Part shown: positions 25,065-52,739 of the stretch, in pieces | Layout of the letters: each line of letters begins with the position of its first letter | Position numbering within the stretch: position 1 is the stretch's first letter | Origin: Gemmatimonadales bacterium | GTDB lineage: Bacteria; Gemmatimonadota; Gemmatimonadetes; Gemmatimonadales; Gemmatimonadaceae | Assembly (NCBI GenBank): GCA_038319955.1 | Contig: JBBQDT010000004.1 | Coordinates: forward strand, 545 to 64,544 | Length of the DNA: 64,000 bases | Reading direction: 5' to 3' | Notes under the pieces: model-generated | The model's database searches: none | What the model saw: only the letters and a program-made list of their open reading frames with translations | What the model was told of the DNA's origin: nothing | Made by a program: the position numbers and the translations under genes

Positions 25065-25663
25065 GCGACCTCGCATCCCTGTCGGAGCCCTTCGCCCGCT
25101 TCGACGCGCTGCTCCAGGAGGCCAGGGCGGTCGGTGCCGACCGACTGCCGGAGCCGACGGCGTTCGCTTTGGGCACGGTAAGCGAGACGGGGCAGCCCGC
25201 GGTGCGCATCCTGTTGCTCAAGGGCGTCGACGATCGCGGCTTCGTGTTCTACACCAACTACGAGAGTCGCAAGGGACGCGAACTGCTCGCGCATCCGCAG
25301 GCCGCGATGTGCTTTCACTGGCAGCCGCTCGAGCGGCAGGTGCGCGTCGAGGGCGTGACGACGCGCGTGAGTACCGACGAGGCCGACGACTACTTCGCGA
25401 GCCGCGCGCGGGGTAGCCAGGTCGGTGCGTGGGCGTCGCGACAGAGCCAGCCCATCGAGCATGCGGGAGATCTCGAGGCGCGTGTGCGCGAGGTCGAGGC
25501 GCGGTTCGCTGACAGGCCGGTCACGCGTCCACCGCGCTGGTCGGGGTTCAGGCTGGTGCCGCATCGGATCGAGTTCTGGCACGGCATGCCGAGTCGGCTG
25601 CACGAGCGGAACGTCTACACGCGTGAGGGTGACGGATGGCGGACGGAGATCCTCTACCCGTAG
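25061..25663 (+). CDS. pdxH: Pyridoxamine 5'-phosphate oxidase
   Basis: ATG 25061 overlaps the permease stop (ATGA). [28 protein letters not shown] and IEFWHG...RLHER match PdxH. Confidence 0.9.
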
Positions 25664-25715
25664 GCGCCTGCGTTCGCCGGCACGGCACGTGACACACCCC
25701 GTTATCTTTCGCGCC

Positions 25716-27671
25716 ATGGCGACTCAGAGCATGGAAAGCACTTCCGCCGTTCCGGCGGATCCCTGGAGCATCGAGAAGGCACGCGCCCTTTACAACATCG
25801 AGGGTTGGGGTGCGGGCTTCTTCGACATCGACGAGCGTGGACACGTCGTCGTCCGCCCCGACAAGGAGCATCCCGAGCGGCAGCTCAGCCTCCACGATCT
25901 CGCCAACGACCTCGAGGAGCAGGGCGTTGCCCTGCCCGTCCTGCTGCGCTTCTCCGATATCCTGCGCTCACGCATCGAAGCGCTGAGCGAGCGGTTCGCG
26001 AACGCGATCCGCGAGTACGAGTACACTGGCGGGTATACCACCGTGTACCCGATCAAGGTGAACCAGCAGCGCCACGTGGTCGAGGAGATCGTCCAGTTCG
26101 GCGCAAAGCATGGCGTCGGCCTCGAGTGCGGGTCCAAGCCGGAACTGCAGGCCGTCCTCGGCCTGTCGGAGAGCACGGAACACCTCATCGTCTGCAACGG
26201 CTACAAGGACGACGAGTTCATGCGCCTCGCCCTCATGGGGCAGAAGCTCGGTCATCAGGTCTTCATCGTCATCGAGCAGCTGAGCGAGATCGATGTTCTG
26301 TTGGCTGCGGCGGAGGAACTGGGCGTGACGCCCACAGCCGGCATCCGGATCAAGCTCGCGAGCACAGGCTACGGCCGCTGGAAGGAAAGCGGTGGCGAGA
26401 AGTCGAAGTTCGGGCTCAACGCAGCGCAGCTGATGGAGGCGGTCGATCGCCTCAAGGCGGCCGGCCGACTCGACATCGTCAAGCTGATCCACTTCCACCT
26501 CGGCTCGCAGATCACCGACATCCGGTACATCAAGTCGGGGCTCCAGGAGGTCGCGCGCTTCTACGCCGAGCTCCGCGCACTGGGCGTCGACATCACCCAC
26601 GTGGACGTGGGCGGTGGCCTCGGCGTGGACTACGACGGCACGAACTCCACCTCGGACGCGAGTGTCAACTACTCGCTCCAGGAGTATGCGAACGATGTCA
26701 TTTATACCATCGCCGAATCGTGCCGCGAGCTCGACCTGCCGATGCCGCACATCATCAGCGAGTCGGGACGCGCGCTCACGGCGCATCATGCGCTGCTGCT
26801 GCTCAAGGTGATCGACGTCGAGTCGGTCGCGCAGGTCACTATGCCGAAGCTGTCCGACGATGATCACGCCGTCCTGCACGAGATGGCCGAGGACCATGCG
26901 GCCCTGAGCAAGCCGAAGGTGGCGCGACGAAAGGTAAAGGAGGTGTTCCACGACGTCACCTTCGACAAGGAGCGCGCGCAGCAGTTCTTCGCCAGCGGCG
27001 TCCTCTCCCTTCGCGAGCGCGCCATGGCCGAGCAGATGTATCACGCCACGGTGAACCTGATCGCGAAGATCGTCGTGCAGGATCGCGACCAGTATCAGGA
27101 TATCATTGCCGATCTCGATGCCGTGCTGGTGGATCGCTACTTCTGCAATTTCTCGCTCTTCCAGTCGCTGCCGGACAGCTGGGCGATCGACCAGCTCTTC
27201 CCGATCATGCCGATTCACCGGCTCGCCGAGGAACCGACGCGTCGTGGCACGCTCCAGGACATCACGTGCGACTCCGACGGCAAGATCGATCGCTTCGTCG
27301 GTGAGAAGGGGGGCAACCCGTCACTCGAGCTGCACGAGTGGCGCGACGGCGATCCCTACATGCTCGGCATCTTCCTCACCGGCGCCTATCAGGAGATCCT
27401 CGGCGACCTCCACAACCTGTTCGGTGACACGAACGCGGCGCATATCCGCCTGGCGAACGGCGGGTACGAGATCACGGATCTCGTACATGGCGATACGGTG
27501 ACGGAGGTGCTGAACTACGTGCAGTTCCGTGCCTCGGACCTGCTCCAGACCTTCCGCCGCAAGGTGACCCAGGTGAAGCACCTGAGCCGGACGGATGCGA
27601 ACGCCTTCATCGCGGACTACGTGGCGGGATTGGAGGGGTACACGTACCTCGAGGGCGAAGCGGCGCAGTGA
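25716..27671 (+). CDS. speA: Biosynthetic arginine decarboxylase
   Basis: From ATG 25716: WSIEKARALYNIEGWGAGFF, TVYPIKVNQ (PLP lysine context) and a 651-aa length match SpeA. The upstream part of ORF 25425.. overlaps pdxH. Confidence 0.9.
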   Translation: MATQSMESTSAVPADPWSIEKARALYNIEGWGAGFFDIDERGHVVVRPDKEHPERQLSLHDLANDLEEQGVALPVLLRFSDILRSRIEALSERFANAIREYEYTGGYTTVYPIKVNQQRHVVEEIVQFGAKHGVGLECGSKPELQAVLGLSESTEHLIVCNGYKDDEFMRLALMGQKLGHQVFIVIEQLSEIDVLLAAAEELGVTPTAGIRIKLASTGYGRWKESGGEKSKFGLNAAQLMEAVDRLKAAGRLDIVKLIHFHLGSQITDIRYIKSGLQEVARFYAELRALGVDITHVDVGGGLGVDYDGTNSTSDASVNYSLQEYANDVIYTIAESCRELDLPMPHIISESGRALTAHHALLLLKVIDVESVAQVTMPKLSDDDHAVLHEMAEDHAALSKPKVARRKVKEVFHDVTFDKERAQQFFASGVLSLRERAMAEQMYHATVNLIAKIVVQDRDQYQDIIADLDAVLVDRYFCNFSLFQSLPDSWAIDQLFPIMPIHRLAEEPTRRGTLQDITCDSDGKIDRFVGEKGGNPSLELHEWRDGDPYMLGIFLTGAYQEILGDLHNLFGDTNAAHIRLANGGYEITDLVHGDTVTEVLNYVQFRASDLLQTFRRKVTQVKHLSRTDANAFIADYVAGLEGYTYLEGEAAQ

Positions 27672-43710: not shown

Positions 43711-44493
43711 ATGATCGACGTCGCCACCTACATCGGCCCGTACCCTTTCCGGCATCTGCCCCACCCCGATCCCGAGGTCCTCGTCCGCGTGCTCGAGCGC
43801 GAGGGGCTCAGCGGGGCATGGGTTGGTTATCTGCCATCGGTCTGGGAGCGCGATCCCGCGCCAGGCAACGTCGCCCTCTTCGCCGCCCTTGCCCCATACC
43901 CCACGCTGCGGCCAACACCCGTGGTGCGTCCCGACTGGCCACGGTGGGAGTGGACGCTGGATCACGCGATCGCCAACGGCGCCGCCGCGGTCCGTGCCTA
44001 TCCGATGCATTGGGGCATGGGCCCGCACGATCCATCGATGCGTGCCTTGGCGCTGGCATGCGGCGAACGCGCCATTCCGCTCCTCCTCACCGTTCGCTTC
44101 GAGGATCTTCGCCAGCGCTCCGGTCTCGACGTCGCCGGGGACCTCACCGCGGCGCACATCCGCTCGCTCGCCCGCGCGCACGTCTCCGTCCGCATTGTCG
44201 TCGTCGGCGCCGGCCGCGACCTGCTCGAGGAGACACACTGGAGCCTCACGCCCGACGAGCAGCGGCGCGTGCATTGGGACTTTGCGTGGATCTGGGGCCC
44301 GCCCGAGGATCACTTCGCGCACCTGCTGCGGACCGTGGGCGCGGAGCGTTTCGTCTATGGAACGCATTGGCCTCTTCGGCTGACGCAGAACTCGCGCGCC
44401 AATCTCGACCTGCTGCCCGACGATCTCCGCGGCGTGGGCATCGTGGATGCATCGTCGCTCGCCCCTGGCGCGGTAGGGGTATCTCCGACTTGA
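43711..44493 (+). CDS. Amidohydrolase-2-like protein, divergent (no N-terminal HxH)
   Basis: The 260-aa ORF has TIM-barrel-like periodicity and a C-terminal FVYGTHWP resembling Amidohydro_2. The N-terminus reads IDVATYIG where HxH would be expected. Confidence 0.6.
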   Translation: MIDVATYIGPYPFRHLPHPDPEVLVRVLEREGLSGAWVGYLPSVWERDPAPGNVALFAALAPYPTLRPTPVVRPDWPRWEWTLDHAIANGAAAVRAYPMHWGMGPHDPSMRALALACGERAIPLLLTVRFEDLRQRSGLDVAGDLTAAHIRSLARAHVSVRIVVVGAGRDLLEETHWSLTPDEQRRVHWDFAWIWGPPEDHFAHLLRTVGAERFVYGTHWPLRLTQNSRANLDLLPDDLRGVGIVDASSLAPGAVGVSPT

Positions 44494-44682
44494 TCTTTGT
44501 GGCGAGCTCGGGGAATTTCCCCTTCGTTCGCGCATTGGGTGCCGAAATTCACCGTGTATTCGCAACACCGCAGGCGCGACACACCGATTACAATGATTTG
44601 TTCCTATATGAGCGCGAAGTGCGTTGCGGTCGCCTTGCGGCTACAACATCGCGCGTTCAAATTGCTGGCCGGTAAGGGACCT

Positions 44683-44727
44683 TGTGAATTCGTTCACAAG
44701 CAACCCGCATCCCGACTTTCCTAGACC
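44683..44727 (+). promoter_or_regulatory. CRP/FNR-superfamily box TGTGA-N6-TCACA plus TAGACC -10-like hexamer upstream of actA
   Basis: cTTGTGAattcgtTCACAAg at 44682-44699. TAGACC at 44722-44727 lies 8 nt before the actA ATG (44736). The box centre is about 44 nt upstream of the implied start site (class-II-like geometry). Confidence 0.55.
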
Positions 44728-44735
44728 CCATCGCG

Positions 44736-45488
44736 ATGACGCAGCGAAGGAAGTGGACAGCGATCCCAGGACTCCTGTTTCTGGCGATCGGAGCAATCGT
44801 GTTGTCCGCCTACAGTGGCGCCTCCTCCTCACAAGGCAATGCCCCTGACCAACCGATCGCCTTCCCGCACCCGAAACATGCGGGGCCGGTGGCCAAGGGC
44901 GGTCTCGGCATGAACTGCCTCTACTGCCACAACACCGCCAACAAGTCCGCCGACGTCGGCATGCCCGCCGTTGCCACTTGCATGGGGTGTCACGCCGCCG
45001 TCCTGGGTTCGACGGACAAGGCCAAGGCCGAGATCAAGAAGATCCAGACCTACGCCGACTACCCGAGTGGTGCGAAGGCGAAGCCCATCCCCTGGGTGCG
45101 CATTCACAAGGTGCCTGAGTACGTCCACTTCCCGCACGTCCGACACGTCAACGCAGGCGTCACCTGCCAGACCTGTCATGGACAGGTGCAGGGAATGACC
45201 AAGGTCTATCAGGCTTCGTCGCTCAACATGGGATGGTGCATCAACTGCCACGTGAACGGCTACGATCCCAAGGAAGGTCAGAAGGCCGCCGGCTACGACA
45301 GCGTGCCTCCCGCCAATTATGCCGGCGGTGTTCCCTACGGCACACCCGGCTCCTTCGCCGGCATCATGACCACCGGTGTCACGCCGGCCACGTCCGCGAG
45401 CGGCTCGGCGTCTCGGACGCCGAATGCCTCGACGCCGTCTACCGAGCGCCGTCGCGCTCGATATGACTGCGCCTCCTGTCACTACTAG
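44736..45488 (+). CDS. actA: Alternative complex III subunit ActA (pentaheme cytochrome c)
   Basis: N-terminal TM anchor and five CXXCH motifs (CLYCH, CMGCH, CQTCH, CINCH, CASCH). First gene of the act operon. Confidence 0.85.
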   Translation: MTQRRKWTAIPGLLFLAIGAIVLSAYSGASSSQGNAPDQPIAFPHPKHAGPVAKGGLGMNCLYCHNTANKSADVGMPAVATCMGCHAAVLGSTDKAKAEIKKIQTYADYPSGAKAKPIPWVRIHKVPEYVHFPHVRHVNAGVTCQTCHGQVQGMTKVYQASSLNMGWCINCHVNGYDPKEGQKAAGYDSVPPANYAGGVPYGTPGSFAGIMTTGVTPATSASGSASRTPNASTPSTERRRARYDCASCHY

Positions 45489-45510
45489 ATCGACCGAGGA
45501 CGAGCCGCAC

Positions 45511-48636
<3,126 letters not shown>

Positions 48637-48648
48637 GGGGGCGCGACG

Positions 48649-50087
<1,439 letters not shown>

Positions 50088-50088
<1 letters not shown>

Positions 50089-50588
50089 TGCAGGGTGTCA
50101 TCGGCGCGTTCTCCGAGCTCGACTCGACCGTTCACGCGATCGAGGAGCTACGCAAGCAGAACTTCAACGACATCGCGGTCTTCAGCCCCACGCCGCGTCA
50201 CGAGCTTGACGACGCCCTGGCCAGCAAGTCCAGCGCGGTGCGCCGCTTTACGCTCGTGGGCGGCCTGTTGGGCGTAACGTTCGGTTACTGGATTCCCATC
50301 TGGATCTCCGACTACTGGCCCATCGTCGTGGGCGGGAAGCCCATCGCGAGCTGGGTTCCGTACACCATCATCGGCTTCGAGCTGATGGTGCTCATTGGCT
50401 CACTTTCCACGGTGTTCGGCATGTTCGCGCTCGCTCGCCTGCCGCGGCTGACGCTTACGGTCGGCTACGATCCACGGTTCAGCGGCGGGGACTTCGGCGT
50501 GTGGGTTGCGGCGGGCCCCGACCGTGCGCCACAGGCTTCCGACCTCCTGCGGAAGAATGGCGCAGTGGAGGTTCGCAATGAGCGCTGA
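50088..50588 (+). CDS. actD: Alternative complex III subunit ActD (DUF3341)
   Basis: ATGA overlap with actC. A soluble N-terminal domain plus two TM segments (FTLVGGLLGVTFGYW, IIGFELMVLIGSL). Confidence 0.85.
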
Positions 50589-51414
50589 TCGTCGTCCCAC
50601 GCGCCGCAACCGTCGACCCGAGCGCAGCGAGCGACCCGCTCTCATGGCTCGTGCGAGGAAATGTTCTTCCCTCGCGTTCCTCACTGCACTAGGGGCCTGC
50701 TCCTGGTTCACCGACTTCCGGGAGCAGCCCAAGCCCGATCCGTGGGAGTCGCCCAGCGATAGCATCGCGATGCGCGGCAACCCGCAGAACTCCGTGTCCG
50801 TCTACGGAACGCTCGCGCCGAGCTATGCCTATTCGCACACGGCATCGATCGCGACAGTGGATTCCATGGCGGGAATCCAGAATCCCGTCGCAGGCGACGC
50901 GCGCTCGCTGCACAACGGACGCATGTACTACCAGATCAACTGCGCGGTTTGCCACGGCGAGGCAGGCAAGGGGGACGGACCCATCCTCACCGCCAAGGCG
51001 ATCTACCCGCCGCCGCTCATCGGCGCGTCCGCGGAGGGCAGGTCCGACGGCTACATCTGGGGGATCATTCGCAACGGCCGCGGTGCGATGCCGTCCTACG
51101 ATCGCATCGAGGAAATGGATCGGTGGGACGTGGTGAACTATGTCCGCGGCCTGCAGGGCAAGTATCAGGTGGCAACGGGCGCTGTCGGCCTGCCTGGTGA
51201 GACAGGTGACAAGGTGCCCGGCTATTCGCAGATGGGGCCCACCCGTCCGTCGCCGTATTACAAGCACGCCGGCTCGCAAGCTGACTCGACGCGTGGCTAC
51301 GCATTTCCGCGTTCGCAGTCGGCGGCGCCGGCCAAGCCCGATTCCATGCCGGCGGCGAACCCTGCGTCCGCCGTGCCCACTCCCCCGACGCCGAAGACCG
51401 GAGGCGAGCGGTGA
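50578..51414 (+). CDS. actE: Alternative complex III subunit ActE (monoheme cytochrome c lipoprotein-like)
   Basis: A single CAVCH motif with downstream Met (RGAMPSY). Lipobox-like LTALGAC. The start, 50578 or 50644, is uncertain. There is a long low-complexity C-terminal tail. Confidence 0.8.
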   Translation: MSADRRPTRRNRRPERSERPALMARARKCSSLAFLTALGACSWFTDFREQPKPDPWESPSDSIAMRGNPQNSVSVYGTLAPSYAYSHTASIATVDSMAGIQNPVAGDARSLHNGRMYYQINCAVCHGEAGKGDGPILTAKAIYPPPLIGASAEGRSDGYIWGIIRNGRGAMPSYDRIEEMDRWDVVNYVRGLQGKYQVATGAVGLPGETGDKVPGYSQMGPTRPSPYYKHAGSQADSTRGYAFPRSQSAAPAKPDSMPAANPASAVPTPPTPKTGGER

Positions 51415-52739
51415 GTCTGCATCCTGTGCGCACCCCAACGCGCGATGAAGTCATCAGCGCATACGACACCAAGGCGACTCCCGCCTCGCTCAGCATGGCG
51501 ATGCTCGTGCTCGCCGCGATCGGGATCATCACCTTCATTGCAGGCCTCTTCCTGGATGCCGATCGTGCGTGGCGCGCCTATCACGTGAGCTGGCTGTACG
51601 TGACGTCGCTGTCGTCCGCGGGCGTGATGTTCGTCGCCGTGCAGCGGATCACCACCGCGCGGTGGTCTCGGCCGCTCATCCGGTTCCAGGAGGGCTTCGT
51701 TGCCTTCCTGCCCGTCGCGTTCGTGCTGTTGCTCTTGAGCGTCTTCCTCGGCAAGCACCACATCTTTCCCTGGACGCACGAGGCGCCGCCCGTTGCGGAA
51801 AAGGTCACGTATTACAACGGCACCTTCCTCACCGCGCGAGTGATCATCGCCTTCGGCGCAATCACGCTGCTGTCGCTCTGGTACATCTACACGTCCGTGC
51901 GGCTCGACGTCGGGCTCGTACCCGAGCGTGGAGCCAAGTGGGCGGCAGGTTTGCGGGCGCGAATGCGCAATGGCTTCCGCGACGAACGCCGTGAACTGCA
52001 CAGCACGCACTCGCTCCAGGGCAAGCTCGCCGTCGCCTTGGCGATGGTGTTCGGCTACGGCTGGTCGTTCCTCGCGTTCGACCTGTCCATGGGAATGAGC
52101 CTGCACTTCCAGAGCACCCTGTACGGCTGGTGGTTCTTCATGGGCGCGTGGCTCTGCTCCCTCACGCTGCTCTCGCTGCTGGTCATGTCGTGGCGCCGCT
52201 TCCTCGGCATCGAAGAGTTCGTGAAGGAGAACCACTTTCACGACCTCGGCAAGCTCTGCTTCGCCTTCACGGCGTTCTGGGGCTACCTCACCTTCAGCCA
52301 GTTCCTCGTGATCTGGTACGGCAACCTGGGTGAGGAGACACATTGGCCGCGCCTGCGTCTCATCGCCCCGTGGGTGCACTTTTCGGTGTCGGCCGTGATG
52401 CTCGTGTTCTTCGCGCCATTCTTCGGGTTGATCTCACGCGCTGCAAAGGTCTACCTGCCGACGTTCGCGCTCTTCGCGACGATCAGCCTCGTCGGCATGT
52501 ACCTCGTTCGGTATCTCGAGGTCTATCCGTCGCTGTACGGGGACGCGCCGGCGCTGCCGTTCGGCGTGTGGGAGGTCGGCATCCTGCTCGGCTTCATCGG
52601 CATGTGGGGATTTTGCTATCTGGCGTTCATGAACGCCTTCCCGCGCGCACGCGTCACGCTCATGACGTCTCCGTACCGTGACGAGGTGCAGATTCCGGTG
52701 GACGCGAAGACGATGGAGCCACTTCCCGCCCACGAATAG
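51411..52739 (+). CDS. actF: Alternative complex III subunit ActF (NrfD-like membrane subunit)
   Basis: GTG 51411 overlaps the actE stop. It is a 442-aa polytopic membrane protein and the last gene of the operon. Confidence 0.85.
   Translation: MSLHPVRTPTRDEVISAYDTKATPASLSMAMLVLAAIGIITFIAGLFLDADRAWRAYHVSWLYVTSLSSAGVMFVAVQRITTARWSRPLIRFQEGFVAFLPVAFVLLLLSVFLGKHHIFPWTHEAPPVAEKVTYYNGTFLTARVIIAFGAITLLSLWYIYTSVRLDVGLVPERGAKWAAGLRARMRNGFRDERRELHSTHSLQGKLAVALAMVFGYGWSFLAFDLSMGMSLHFQSTLYGWWFFMGAWLCSLTLLSLLVMSWRRFLGIEEFVKENHFHDLGKLCFAFTAFWGYLTFSQFLVIWYGNLGEETHWPRLRLIAPWVHFSVSAVMLVFFAPFFGLISRAAKVYLPTFALFATISLVGMYLVRYLEVYPSLYGDAPALPFGVWEVGILLGFIGMWGFCYLAFMNAFPRARVTLMTSPYRDEVQIPVDAKTMEPLPAHE

What the first reader, a model, noticed from the sequence alone, without database searches (positions are those of the whole stretch)
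44586..44736. Perfect CRP/FNR-type palindrome in class-II-like position upstream of a near-leaderless actA
cTTGTGAattcgtTCACAAg (44682-44699) contains the full TGTGA-N6-TCACA consensus of CRP-type sites. A TAGACC hexamer (44722-44727) resembles the TAGACT -10 found upstream of the MATE leader. It ends 8 nt before the actA ATG, so the transcript would have essentially no 5' UTR and no SD. The box centre lies about 44 nt upstream of that start, close to the -41.5 geometry of class II CRP/FNR promoters. An unusually AT-rich tract (44586-44612, GATTACAATGATTTGTTCCTATATGAG) lies further upstream. This predicts redox, oxygen or cNMP control of the alternative complex III operon by a CRP/FNR-family regulator.
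Basis: partly seen in the sequence, partly recalled or inferred. Interest (0 to 1): 0.5.

Follow-up and report, generated by a model that had tools for sequence, protein, structure and literature searches.

The report
Rex redox operator before ACIII operon
The perfect palindrome in front of the alternative complex III genes of this uncultured Gemmatimonadaceae bacterium is real and conserved. It is the operator of the NADH-sensing repressor Rex, not a CRP/FNR activator site, so it is a new example of a well-known redox switch.

Summary
TTGTGAA-ttcg-TTCACAA lies at 44682-44699, 36 nt before the actA ATG. About 0.03 exact TGTGA-N6-TCACA matches are expected per window.

The box matches all 14 specified positions of the published Rex operator consensus TTGTGAANNNNTTCACAA.

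- **Rex identity.** The genome's only other perfect copy lies 13 nt before its single rex gene. All 30 rex loci sampled across the order carry the box 0-39 nt upstream.
- **Regulon.** Near-perfect copies precede the atp operon, nuoA and a cupredoxin lipoprotein gene. They are conserved in 27/27, 21/21 and 19/19 genus relatives.
- **actA.** The box is perfect in 16 of 24 genus genomes. It is also present in family relatives with only 44-60% ActA identity, where the spacer varies and the half-sites do not.
- **Geometry.** A TTGCGG-N17-CAAATT promoter upstream is conserved and puts the box at about +13 to +30, as at the clear nuoA promoter.

Most likely, Rex represses ACIII at low NADH/NAD+ and releases it when NADH rises.

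A CRP-like protein exists in the genome, so cross-talk is not excluded.

This is a known mechanism with a target not found in the papers searched. This scan has noted Rex boxes at ACIII promoters in other genomes before.

The parts
44682..44699 (.). Rex operator (ROP), TTGTGAA-ttcg-TTCACAA. The palindrome extends to 44681-44700.
   Evidence: Sequence read. It matches 14/14 specified positions of the consensus quoted in PMC5355995 and PMC5317091. It is perfect in 16/24 genus orthologues and has 1-3 mismatches in 5 more. It is present in family relatives with a varying spacer.
44635..44640 (+). Predicted -35 hexamer TTGCGG of the act promoter
   Evidence: Conserved block in the genus alignment. 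TTGCnn-N17/18-[CG]Ann[AT]T is found upstream of the box in 27/29 distinct box-bearing act promoters, against 0.5% of background 70-nt windows. The pattern was defined post hoc. The same TTGCGn -35 is seen at the cupredoxin and atp promoters.
44658..44663 (+). Predicted -10 hexamer CAAATT, 17 nt after the -35. The predicted transcription start is near 44670.
   Evidence: The hexamer is conserved as CAAATT, CAGATT, CATTAT, CATTTT or GATTAT, while the spacer and the flanks vary. It ends 13-19 nt before the box. No transcript data are available.
44720..44735 (+). Conserved block CC.a.ACCCCATCGCG directly before the ATG. Its function is unknown and it is not a conserved -10.
   Evidence: Genus alignment.
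44736..45488 (+). actA, the multihaem cytochrome c subunit and first gene of the controlled operon
   Evidence: ORF listed. Pfam cytochrome c7/c3 and NCBIfam QrcA-like hits.
45376..52739 (+). actB-actF. These are a molybdopterin/FeS subunit, an NrfD-like subunit, ActD, a monohaem cytochrome c, and a sixth ORF taken as actF that has no Pfam hit. All are on the same strand and tightly packed. The ActB start is the longest-ORF start and is uncertain.

Best explanation
The palindrome is an operator for Rex, the NADH/NAD+-sensing winged-helix repressor. Rex is encoded once in this genome, on contig C77.

When the NADH/NAD+ ratio is low, the Rex dimer binds the box and holds down transcription of actABCDEF. 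When NADH accumulates, through reductant excess or oxygen limitation, Rex leaves the DNA and the quinol-oxidising ACIII is made. The same switch controls complex I (nuo), ATP synthase (atp), a plastocyanin/azurin-family lipoprotein and rex itself.

The act promoter is most likely TTGCGG (44635-44640), 17 nt, CAAATT (44658-44663). Transcription would then start near 44670, the box would cover about +13 to +30, and the mRNA would have a leader of about 66 nt. Rex would block RNA polymerase binding or escape.

What is shown: the sequence match, the linkage to rex, the regulon content, and the conservation of box and promoter blocks.

What is inferred: actual binding, the NADH response, the sign of regulation, and the start site.

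My sub-probabilities are about 0.9 that this is a Rex site, about 0.75 that Rex acts as a repressor of act, and about 0.65 for the geometry downstream of the start site.
For: 1. **Consensus.** The box equals TTGTGAANNNNTTCACAA, the Rex operator consensus stated in PMC5355995 and in PMC5317091 citing Ravcheev 2012.
2. **Cognate regulator.** L004:3169-3798 is Rex (NCBIfam NF003995, E=7e-75; Pfam Put_DNA-bind_N plus CoA_binding). It is the only such gene in the genome. It aligns along nearly its whole length with solved Rex structures 5zz5, 3ikt and 1xcb at E about 1e-48, with the QVRKDLS..FG..G.RG.GY segment and the GxGxxG motif kept.
3. **Autoregulation.** The only other perfect box in the genome lies 13 nt before the rex start. 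All 30 rex loci across the order have the box 0-39 nt upstream (28 perfect). The perfect box occurs in 138/151 genomes of the order, while the reversed control pattern occurs in none. Rex scores above the family cut-off in 144/151. Four of the 7 genomes without a Rex match above that cut-off have no perfect box, against 9 of the 144 with one.
4. **Regulon typical of Rex.**
   - The atp operon box is identical in 27/27 genus genomes and overlaps the -35 of TTGCGA-N17-TAGATT.
   - The nuoA box is present in 21/21 genus genomes, about 15 nt after the -10 of a canonical TTGACA-N18-TAACTT promoter.
   - The cupredoxin box is present in 19/19 genus genomes, with the -10 (TAAATT or TAAAAT) inside the box.
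   - An etfB site has 2 mismatches.
5. **actA box conserved.** It is conserved in the genus and the family. The spacer varies while the half-sites stay invariant, and no compensatory changes are seen.
6. **Conserved upstream promoter.** It is found in 27/29 box-bearing act promoters.
7. **Precedent.** The S. avermitilis cydA1 operator lies downstream of the start site, with a footprint from -3 to +25.
Against: - There is no binding, expression or start-site data.
- The proposed promoter matches only 6 of 12 consensus positions. The simple promoter scan did not call it.
- Genome-wide, TTGCG-type -35 hexamers show only a weak spacing peak, unlike TTGAC.
- The stretch just before the ATG is strongly conserved and unexplained. 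Leaderless genes are common here: 13 of 55 canonical promoters have that geometry. A second, leaderless promoter therefore cannot be excluded.
- The core TGTGA-N6-TCACA is shared with CRP sites, and the genome encodes a CRP-like protein with the helix SRETVSR.
- The box is not found upstream of actA in the Gemmatimonas-labelled and other more distant loci examined, or in another family of the order. The link to ACIII is therefore lineage-specific.
Confidence: 0.8

Rival explanations
1. This is a Rex operator, but the working promoter lies between the box and the ATG and produces a leaderless or near-leaderless actA mRNA. Rex would then repress from about -54 to -37 by covering the -35 or UP region.
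For: - Leaderless geometry is common in this genome (13 of 55 canonical promoters).
- The atp promoter of the same regulon is near-leaderless, with TAGATT 9-11 nt before the ATG.
- In one family clade (L053, L055, L072) a good TTGATT-N16-AATAAT or GATAAT lies between box and ATG, ending 5-6 nt before the ATG.
- S. avermitilis Rex footprints at -50 to -22 on atpI.
Against: - In this genus TAGACC varies to TCGACC, CACACC, TACACC or AACACC, never ends in T, and has no -35 at 16-18 nt.
- The upstream TTGCGG-N17-CAAATT is conserved in 27/29 promoters.
- nuoA shows that a box downstream of the start is used in this organism.
Confidence: 0.15
2. This is a CRP/FNR-family site in class-II position. A cNMP- or oxygen-sensing activator would bind TGTGA-N6-TCACA centred about 43 nt upstream of a leaderless start and recruit RNA polymerase.
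For: - The core is a perfect TGTGA-N6-TCACA.
- The genome encodes about four proteins with cNMP-binding and HTH_Crp_2 domains.
- One of them, on contig C6, has the recognition helix SRETVSR, the RE..R pattern of E. coli CRP (the comparison with E. coli is from my own knowledge).
- No good -35 precedes TAGACC, as is typical of class-II promoters.
Against: - The full 18-bp form, with T1, A7, T12 and A18, is invariant in act orthologues and is the Rex form. E. coli-type CRP sites have T and A at positions 7 and 12 (from my own knowledge).
- Degenerate congeners keep GTGAA-N4-TTCAC while losing the outer T of TGTGA.
- The same 18-mer is attached to rex in 30/30 loci.
- No FNR box (TTGAT-N4-ATCAA) exists in the genome.
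- The distance from box to ATG varies by 8 nt among relatives, which does not fit strict -41.5 phasing.
- The proposed -10 is not conserved.
Confidence: 0.04
3. The palindrome acts at the RNA level as an 8-bp hairpin with a UUCG tetraloop in the act leader, affecting stability or translation.
For: If transcription starts near 44670, the box is transcribed and folds into this hairpin in the minimum-free-energy structure.
Against: - The leader does not fold better than shuffled sequences (z = -0.89).
- No Rfam family matches.
- Across about 60 act and rex sites the stem never shows compensatory changes, while the loop varies freely and is usually not UUCG. That is the signature of a protein-binding DNA site.
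- At other promoters the same motif lies upstream of the predicted start (atp).
Confidence: 0.01

Closest known systems
Rex operators (ROP) of Streptomyces coelicolor and S. avermitilis at nuoA-N, cydABCD, atpI and rex-hemACD
   Same: - The same 18-bp consensus, TTGTGAANNNNTTCACAA.
- The same kind of targets: complex I, ATP synthase, a respiratory quinol-oxidising complex, and rex itself.
- Operators that overlap the -35 or spacer, or lie just downstream of the start (cydA1, -3 to +25).
- Release by NADH.

Source: PMC5355995.
   Different: - A different phylum (Gemmatimonadota), with no cultured member of this genus seen among the database records.
- The targets include alternative complex III and a cupredoxin instead of cytochrome bd.
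- Nothing here is tested experimentally.
Comparative-genomics Rex regulons across phyla (Ravcheev et al. 2012, J Bacteriol 194:1145), as cited in PMC5317091
   Same: A generalised consensus conserved across phyla. The logic of assigning the motif by its linkage to rex and to NADH-reoxidising genes is also the same.
   Different: I could not read that paper. My searches found no paper linking Rex to alternative complex III or to Gemmatimonadota.
E. coli-type CRP sites at class-II promoters
   Same: The core pentamers and spacing are identical: TGTGA-N6-TCACA.
   Different: - The positions flanking the pentamers are of the Rex type.
- The motif travels with rex, not with a crp gene.
- The proposed -10 and the -41.5 phasing are not conserved.
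Earlier notes of this scan on other genomes (e1-704252, e1-5159476, e1-5296830)
   Same: They describe Rex-type boxes at or just after promoters of ACIII operons. In one, a follow-up agent also re-assigned a supposed CRP/FNR site to Rex.
   Different: They concern other DNA, and I did not check them. Here the regulon and the promoter geometry were reconstructed independently.

Membership tests
Rex operator / Rex regulon | An 18-bp palindrome matching TTGTGAA-N4-TTCACAA | tested here: met
   14 of 14 specified positions match. The consensus is from PMC5355995 and PMC5317091.
Rex operator / Rex regulon | A cognate Rex protein (N-terminal winged helix plus Rossmann NAD(H) domain) encoded in the same genome | tested here: met
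   L004:3169-3798: NF003995 at E=7e-75, PF06971 plus PF02629. It is a single copy. It aligns with PDB Rex structures at E about 1e-48.
Rex operator / Rex regulon | The same motif at the rex promoter (autoregulation), conserved across the lineage | tested here: met
   In this genome a perfect box lies 13 nt before rex. Across the order, 30/30 rex loci carry it.
Rex operator / Rex regulon | Other sites of the motif precede NADH- or respiration-linked genes | tested here: met
   nuoA in 21/21, the atp operon in 27/27 and the cupredoxin in 19/19 genus genomes, plus etfB.
Rex operator / Rex regulon | The operator overlaps the promoter or the early transcribed region | tested here: inconclusive
   The predicted promoter TTGCGG-N17-CAAATT puts the box at about +13 to +30.
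Rex operator / Rex regulon | Rex binds the site and is released by NADH | not testable with these tools
   This needs EMSA or footprinting with and without NADH and NAD+.
CRP/FNR-type site at a class-II promoter | A TGTGA-N6-TCACA (CRP) or TTGAT-N4-ATCAA (FNR) core | tested here: met
   The CRP core is perfect. The FNR core is absent here and has 0 copies in the genome.
CRP/FNR-type site at a class-II promoter | CRP-type bases next to the pentamers (TGTGAT...ATCACA) | tested here: not met
   The site and all conserved orthologues have TGTGAA...TTCACA. The E. coli consensus is from my own knowledge.
CRP/FNR-type site at a class-II promoter | A CRP/FNR-family regulator able to read TGTGA encoded in the genome | tested here: met
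   The protein on contig C6 has cNMP_binding and HTH_Crp_2 domains and the helix SRETVSR.
CRP/FNR-type site at a class-II promoter | Site centred at -41.5 from the start of a promoter with a functional -10 | tested here: inconclusive
   The proposed -10, TAGACC, is not conserved and lacks the final T. The distance from box to ATG varies from 49 to 57 nt among relatives. No start site has been mapped.
CRP/FNR-type site at a class-II promoter | The motif co-varies or co-localises with the crp/fnr gene across genomes | not tested
   Only the linkage to rex was examined, and it was found in 30/30 loci.

The most novel reading that the evidence does not exclude
The box is read by two sensors. Rex and the genome's CRP-like protein (recognition helix SRETVSR) would compete for the same TGTGA-N6-TCACA core at actA. 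ACIII expression would then integrate NADH/NAD+ with a cyclic-nucleotide signal. The CRP-like protein would activate a leaderless promoter from about -43, and Rex would occlude it.
Probability: 0.05. Interest if true: 0.6.

Novelty: new member of a known kind. Interest (0 to 1): 0.3.

Why it matters
I found almost nothing published on how alternative complex III is regulated, and nothing on transcription control in Gemmatimonadota. This phylum is abundant in soil and mostly uncultured.

The result gives a concrete, testable wiring. One NADH/NAD+ sensor would co-ordinate complex I, ACIII, a membrane-anchored cupredoxin and ATP synthase.

The co-regulated cupredoxin also lies about 10 kb downstream of actA on the same contig in a sister family. 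That makes it a candidate electron acceptor of ACIII, comparable to auracyanin in Chloroflexus. This comparison is inference from my own knowledge.

The work also yields working promoter models for this lineage: TTGACA/TTGCGn -35 hexamers, TAnnnT -10 hexamers, and frequent leaderless mRNAs. The mechanism itself is textbook Rex, so a specialist would not be surprised.

Tried and rejected
- **Known RNA families.** Rfam gave no match on 44300-44900 at E up to 1. The leader does not fold better than shuffled sequences.
- **Simple promoter and terminator scan.** It found nothing on 44300-44900.
- **AT-rich tract (44586-44612).** It is conserved only in the closest relative, so I dropped it as a functional element.
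- **Alternative promoter using TTGCTG (44662-44667) as -35 with a -10 inside the box.** Rejected because the distance from that block to the box varies from 13 to 19 nt among relatives.
- **Sites with 3 mismatches genome-wide.** The intergenic ones did not fall before recognisable oxidase or denitrification genes, on a crude ORF-based look.
- **A separate CRP-type class (TGTGAT-N4-ATCACA).** It shows only weak enrichment, with 2 exact copies. I did not pursue it.
- **Presence/absence test of rex against perfect boxes.** It is suggestive only: 4 of 7 genomes without rex have no box, against 9 of 144 with rex. Nearly all genomes have both, and related genomes are not independent.
- **Ravcheev 2012.** The paper is not held.
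- **One script timed out**. I replaced it with spacer controls and a zero-order expectation.

Full report
**1. Observation**

The window is part of contig C4 of a 4.76-Mb, 65.5% GC assembly in 334 contigs. Database titles of its closest relatives name Gemmatimonadaceae MAGs.

- The 18-mer TTGTGAATTCGTTCACAA is at 44682-44699. The flanking c and g extend the palindrome to 20 nt.
- TAGACC is at 44722-44727, 8 nt before the ATG at 44736.
- The AT-rich tract is at 44586-44612.

The ORFs downstream are an alternative complex III operon. They encode a multihaem ActA, a molybdopterin/FeS ActB, an NrfD-like ActC, ActD, a monohaem cytochrome c, and a sixth ORF that has no Pfam hit and is taken as actF.

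An exact TGTGA-N6-TCACA is expected 0.03 times in the window.

**2. The motif defines a small regulon**

Genome-wide there are 9 exact TGTGA-N6-TCACA sites, against 0-1 for the other spacings tested. Three of them share the longer form TTGTGA-N6-TCACAA.

I scanned with TTGTGAA-N4-TTCACAA and allowed mismatches.

| Mismatches | Sites found | Zero-order expectation |
|---|---|---|
| 0 | 2 | 0.0013 |
| 1 | 3 | 0.07 |
| 2 | 4 | 1.9 |

Across twelve other spacer lengths there is only one site with one mismatch or fewer.

- **Perfect sites.** One precedes actA. The other lies on contig C77, 13 nt before a gene that is Rex. That gene hits NCBIfam NF003995 at E=7e-75 and Pfam Put_DNA-bind_N plus CoA_binding. 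It is the only such gene in the genome. It aligns along nearly its whole length with solved Rex structures, with the DNA-binding segment and the GxGxxG motif kept.
- **One-mismatch sites.**
  - One precedes a plastocyanin/azurin-family lipoprotein.
  - One precedes the ATP synthase operon, whose first genes match ATPase_gene1 and ATP-synt_A.
  - One lies between clpP and clpX.
- **Two-mismatch sites.** Two of them precede nuoA (15 nt before its ATG) and etfB.

TTGTGAANNNNTTCACAA is the published Rex operator consensus. In Streptomyces avermitilis, Rex represses atpIBEFHAGDC, cydA1B1CD, nuoA1-N1 and rex-hemAC1DB through such sites and is released by NADH (PMC5355995). The generalised consensus is also quoted from Ravcheev 2012 in PMC5317091.

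**3. Assigning the motif to Rex**

- Across 151 genomes of the order, 138 have at least one perfect box. The reversed control pattern occurs in none.
- Rex scores above the family cut-off in 144 of these genomes.
- In all 30 rex loci fetched (58-72% identity to this Rex), a box lies 0-39 nt upstream of rex. It is perfect in 28 and has one mismatch in 2.
- Four of the 7 genomes without a Rex match above that cut-off have no perfect box, against 9 of the 144 with one. This is weak evidence, because the genomes are related and some are incomplete.

The linkage to rex is the standard argument for naming the cognate factor, and here it is very strong.

**4. Conservation at the targets**

| Target | Conservation in genus genomes |
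|---|---|
| actA | perfect in 16 of 24; 1-3 mismatches in 5; a 2-nt deletion in 1; no recognisable box in 2 |
| cupredoxin | 19 of 19 |
| nuoA | 21 of 21 |
| atp operon | 27 of 27, identical, although the first protein is only 41-81% identical |

- The actA box always lies 51-55 nt before the ATG within the genus.
- Family-level relatives with only 44-60% ActA identity also carry a perfect box 49-66 nt before actA. Their spacers differ (GTTA, ATTC, CAAT, ATAC, CGAT) while the half-sites are invariant.
- The box is not found upstream of actA in the Gemmatimonas-labelled and other more distant loci examined, or in another family of the order.
- In a sister family the cupredoxin lies about 10 kb downstream of actA on the same contig. 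There it also has a perfect box upstream (coordinates).

The invariant stems, the free loop and the lack of compensatory changes argue for a protein-binding DNA site and against an RNA hairpin. In addition, the leader fold is not better than shuffles (z = -0.89), and Rfam gives no match.

**5. Promoter geometry**

- **The proposed -10.** TAGACC is not conserved. In congeners it reads TCGACC, TACACC, CACACC or AACACC. It never ends in T and has no -35 at 16-18 nt.
- **The conserved upstream pair.**
  - TTGCGG (44635-44640), a 17-nt spacer of variable sequence, then CAAATT (44658-44663) is conserved in its place.
  - The pattern TTGCnn-N17/18-[CG]Ann[AT]T occurs upstream of the box in 27 of 29 distinct box-bearing act promoters, including distant ones with better -10 hexamers (CATTAT, GATTAT).
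  - Its -10 ends 13-19 nt before the box.
  - The background rate is 0.5% of 70-nt windows. I defined the pattern from these same sequences, so that contrast is inflated.
- **Consequence.** The start would be near 44670 and the box at about +13 to +30.
- **In-genome precedent.** nuoA has an unambiguous TTGACA-N18-TAACTT promoter, with its box about 15 nt after the -10.
- **Other regulon promoters.**
  - At the cupredoxin gene the -10 (TAAATT or TAAAAT) lies inside the box, after a TTGCGC -35.
  - At atp the left half-site is itself the -35 of TTGCGA-N17-TAGATT.
  - At rex a TAGTTT -10 overlaps the first two bases of the box.

All of these are repressor positions. S. avermitilis has both kinds: -50 to -22 at atpI and -3 to +25 at cydA1.

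**6.

- Canonical promoters exist in this genome. TTGAC.-Ns-TA...T peaks at spacers of 16-18 nt.
- In 13 of 55 such promoters the start codon follows the -10 by 5-9 nt, so leaderless mRNAs are common.
- The 16 nt before the actA ATG are strongly conserved and unexplained.
- The genome encodes CRP/FNR-family proteins. One has the recognition helix SRETVSR, the RE..R pattern of E. coli CRP.

Against a CRP reading:
- Box positions 1, 7, 12 and 18, which distinguish Rex sites, are invariant in act orthologues.
- Degenerate congeners keep GTGAA-N4-TTCAC while losing the outer bases.
- No FNR-type box exists in the genome.
- The distance from box to ATG varies by 8 nt among relatives.

**7. Mechanism, novelty and limits**

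The most likely mechanism is as follows. At low NADH/NAD+, Rex binds the box and blocks transcription of actABCDEF. When NADH rises, Rex is released, and ACIII is made together with complex I, ATP synthase and the cupredoxin.

- **Shown:** motif identity, linkage to rex, regulon content, and conservation.
- **Inferred:** binding, the NADH response, the sign of regulation, and the start site.
- **Literature.** I found no paper linking Rex to alternative complex III or to Gemmatimonadota.
- **Earlier scan notes.** Earlier notes of this scan report Rex boxes at ACIII promoters in other genomes.
- **Verdict.** This is a new member of a known kind, of modest interest.

Noticed in passing
L002:3270-3465 (G000 contig C25, about 26770-26965): A histidine-operon attenuator. 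A TTGACC-N17-TAGGTT promoter is followed 7 nt later by a leaderless leader peptide, MITTRPHHHVHHHG... (ATG at L002:3316). A GC hairpin with a T-run follows, just before hisG and hisD.
   Followed up: partly
L002:3162-3179: A perfect 18-nt GC-rich palindrome, ACCGCGGGGCCCCGCGGT, lies between the Rex box and the Shine-Dalgarno sequence of the cupredoxin gene. Its ...cgcgggg part recurs in congeners. Its function is unknown.
   Followed up: no
window 44510-44522: The palindrome GGGGAAtTTCCCC lies just after the upstream gene. It is conserved in the genus with changes that look compensatory, for example CAGGGA..TCCCTG and CGGGA..TCCCG (by eye). It is probably that gene's terminator hairpin, which would leave actA with its own promoter.
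   Followed up: partly
window 44720-44737: The block ACCCCATCGCG directly before the actA ATG is nearly invariant in the genus and includes the 8-nt palindrome ATCGCGAT (44730-44737). It contains no Shine-Dalgarno sequence. It is unexplained. It could be a translation-initiation signal or a second protein-binding site.
   Followed up: partly
L010:277-294 (G000 contig C247): A one-mismatch Rex-type box, TAGTGAACGTTTTCACAA, lies in the clpP-clpX intergenic region about 105 nt upstream of clpX. An extra half-site, TTGTGAC, lies next to it.
   Followed up: no
Genomes G136 and G170 (same order, genus g60): These two genomes carry 27 and 28 perfect Rex-type boxes, against 0-5 in all the others. The palindrome may be carried on a repeated element there.
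   Followed up: no
L144, L150, L153, L155, L156 (rex loci of a sister family): The rex promoter reads TTGCGT or TTGATT, then 17-18 nt, then AATAAT. The -10 is formed by the spacer of the Rex box, and the ATG follows the box by 0-1 nt. This is a leaderless, self-occluded rex gene.
   Followed up: partly
G000 contig C6, about 25100-25945, minus strand (L124): A CRP-like regulator (cNMP_binding plus HTH_Crp_2) has the recognition helix SRETVSR. Two exact TGTGAT-N4-ATCACA sites exist in the genome, at C16:4968 and C157:4483.
   Followed up: partly
G000 genome-wide: About a quarter of canonical TTGACn-N16-18-TAnnnT promoters that are followed by a long ORF have the start codon 5-9 nt after the -10. 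Leaderless mRNAs therefore appear common in this Gemmatimonadaceae genome.
   Followed up: partly
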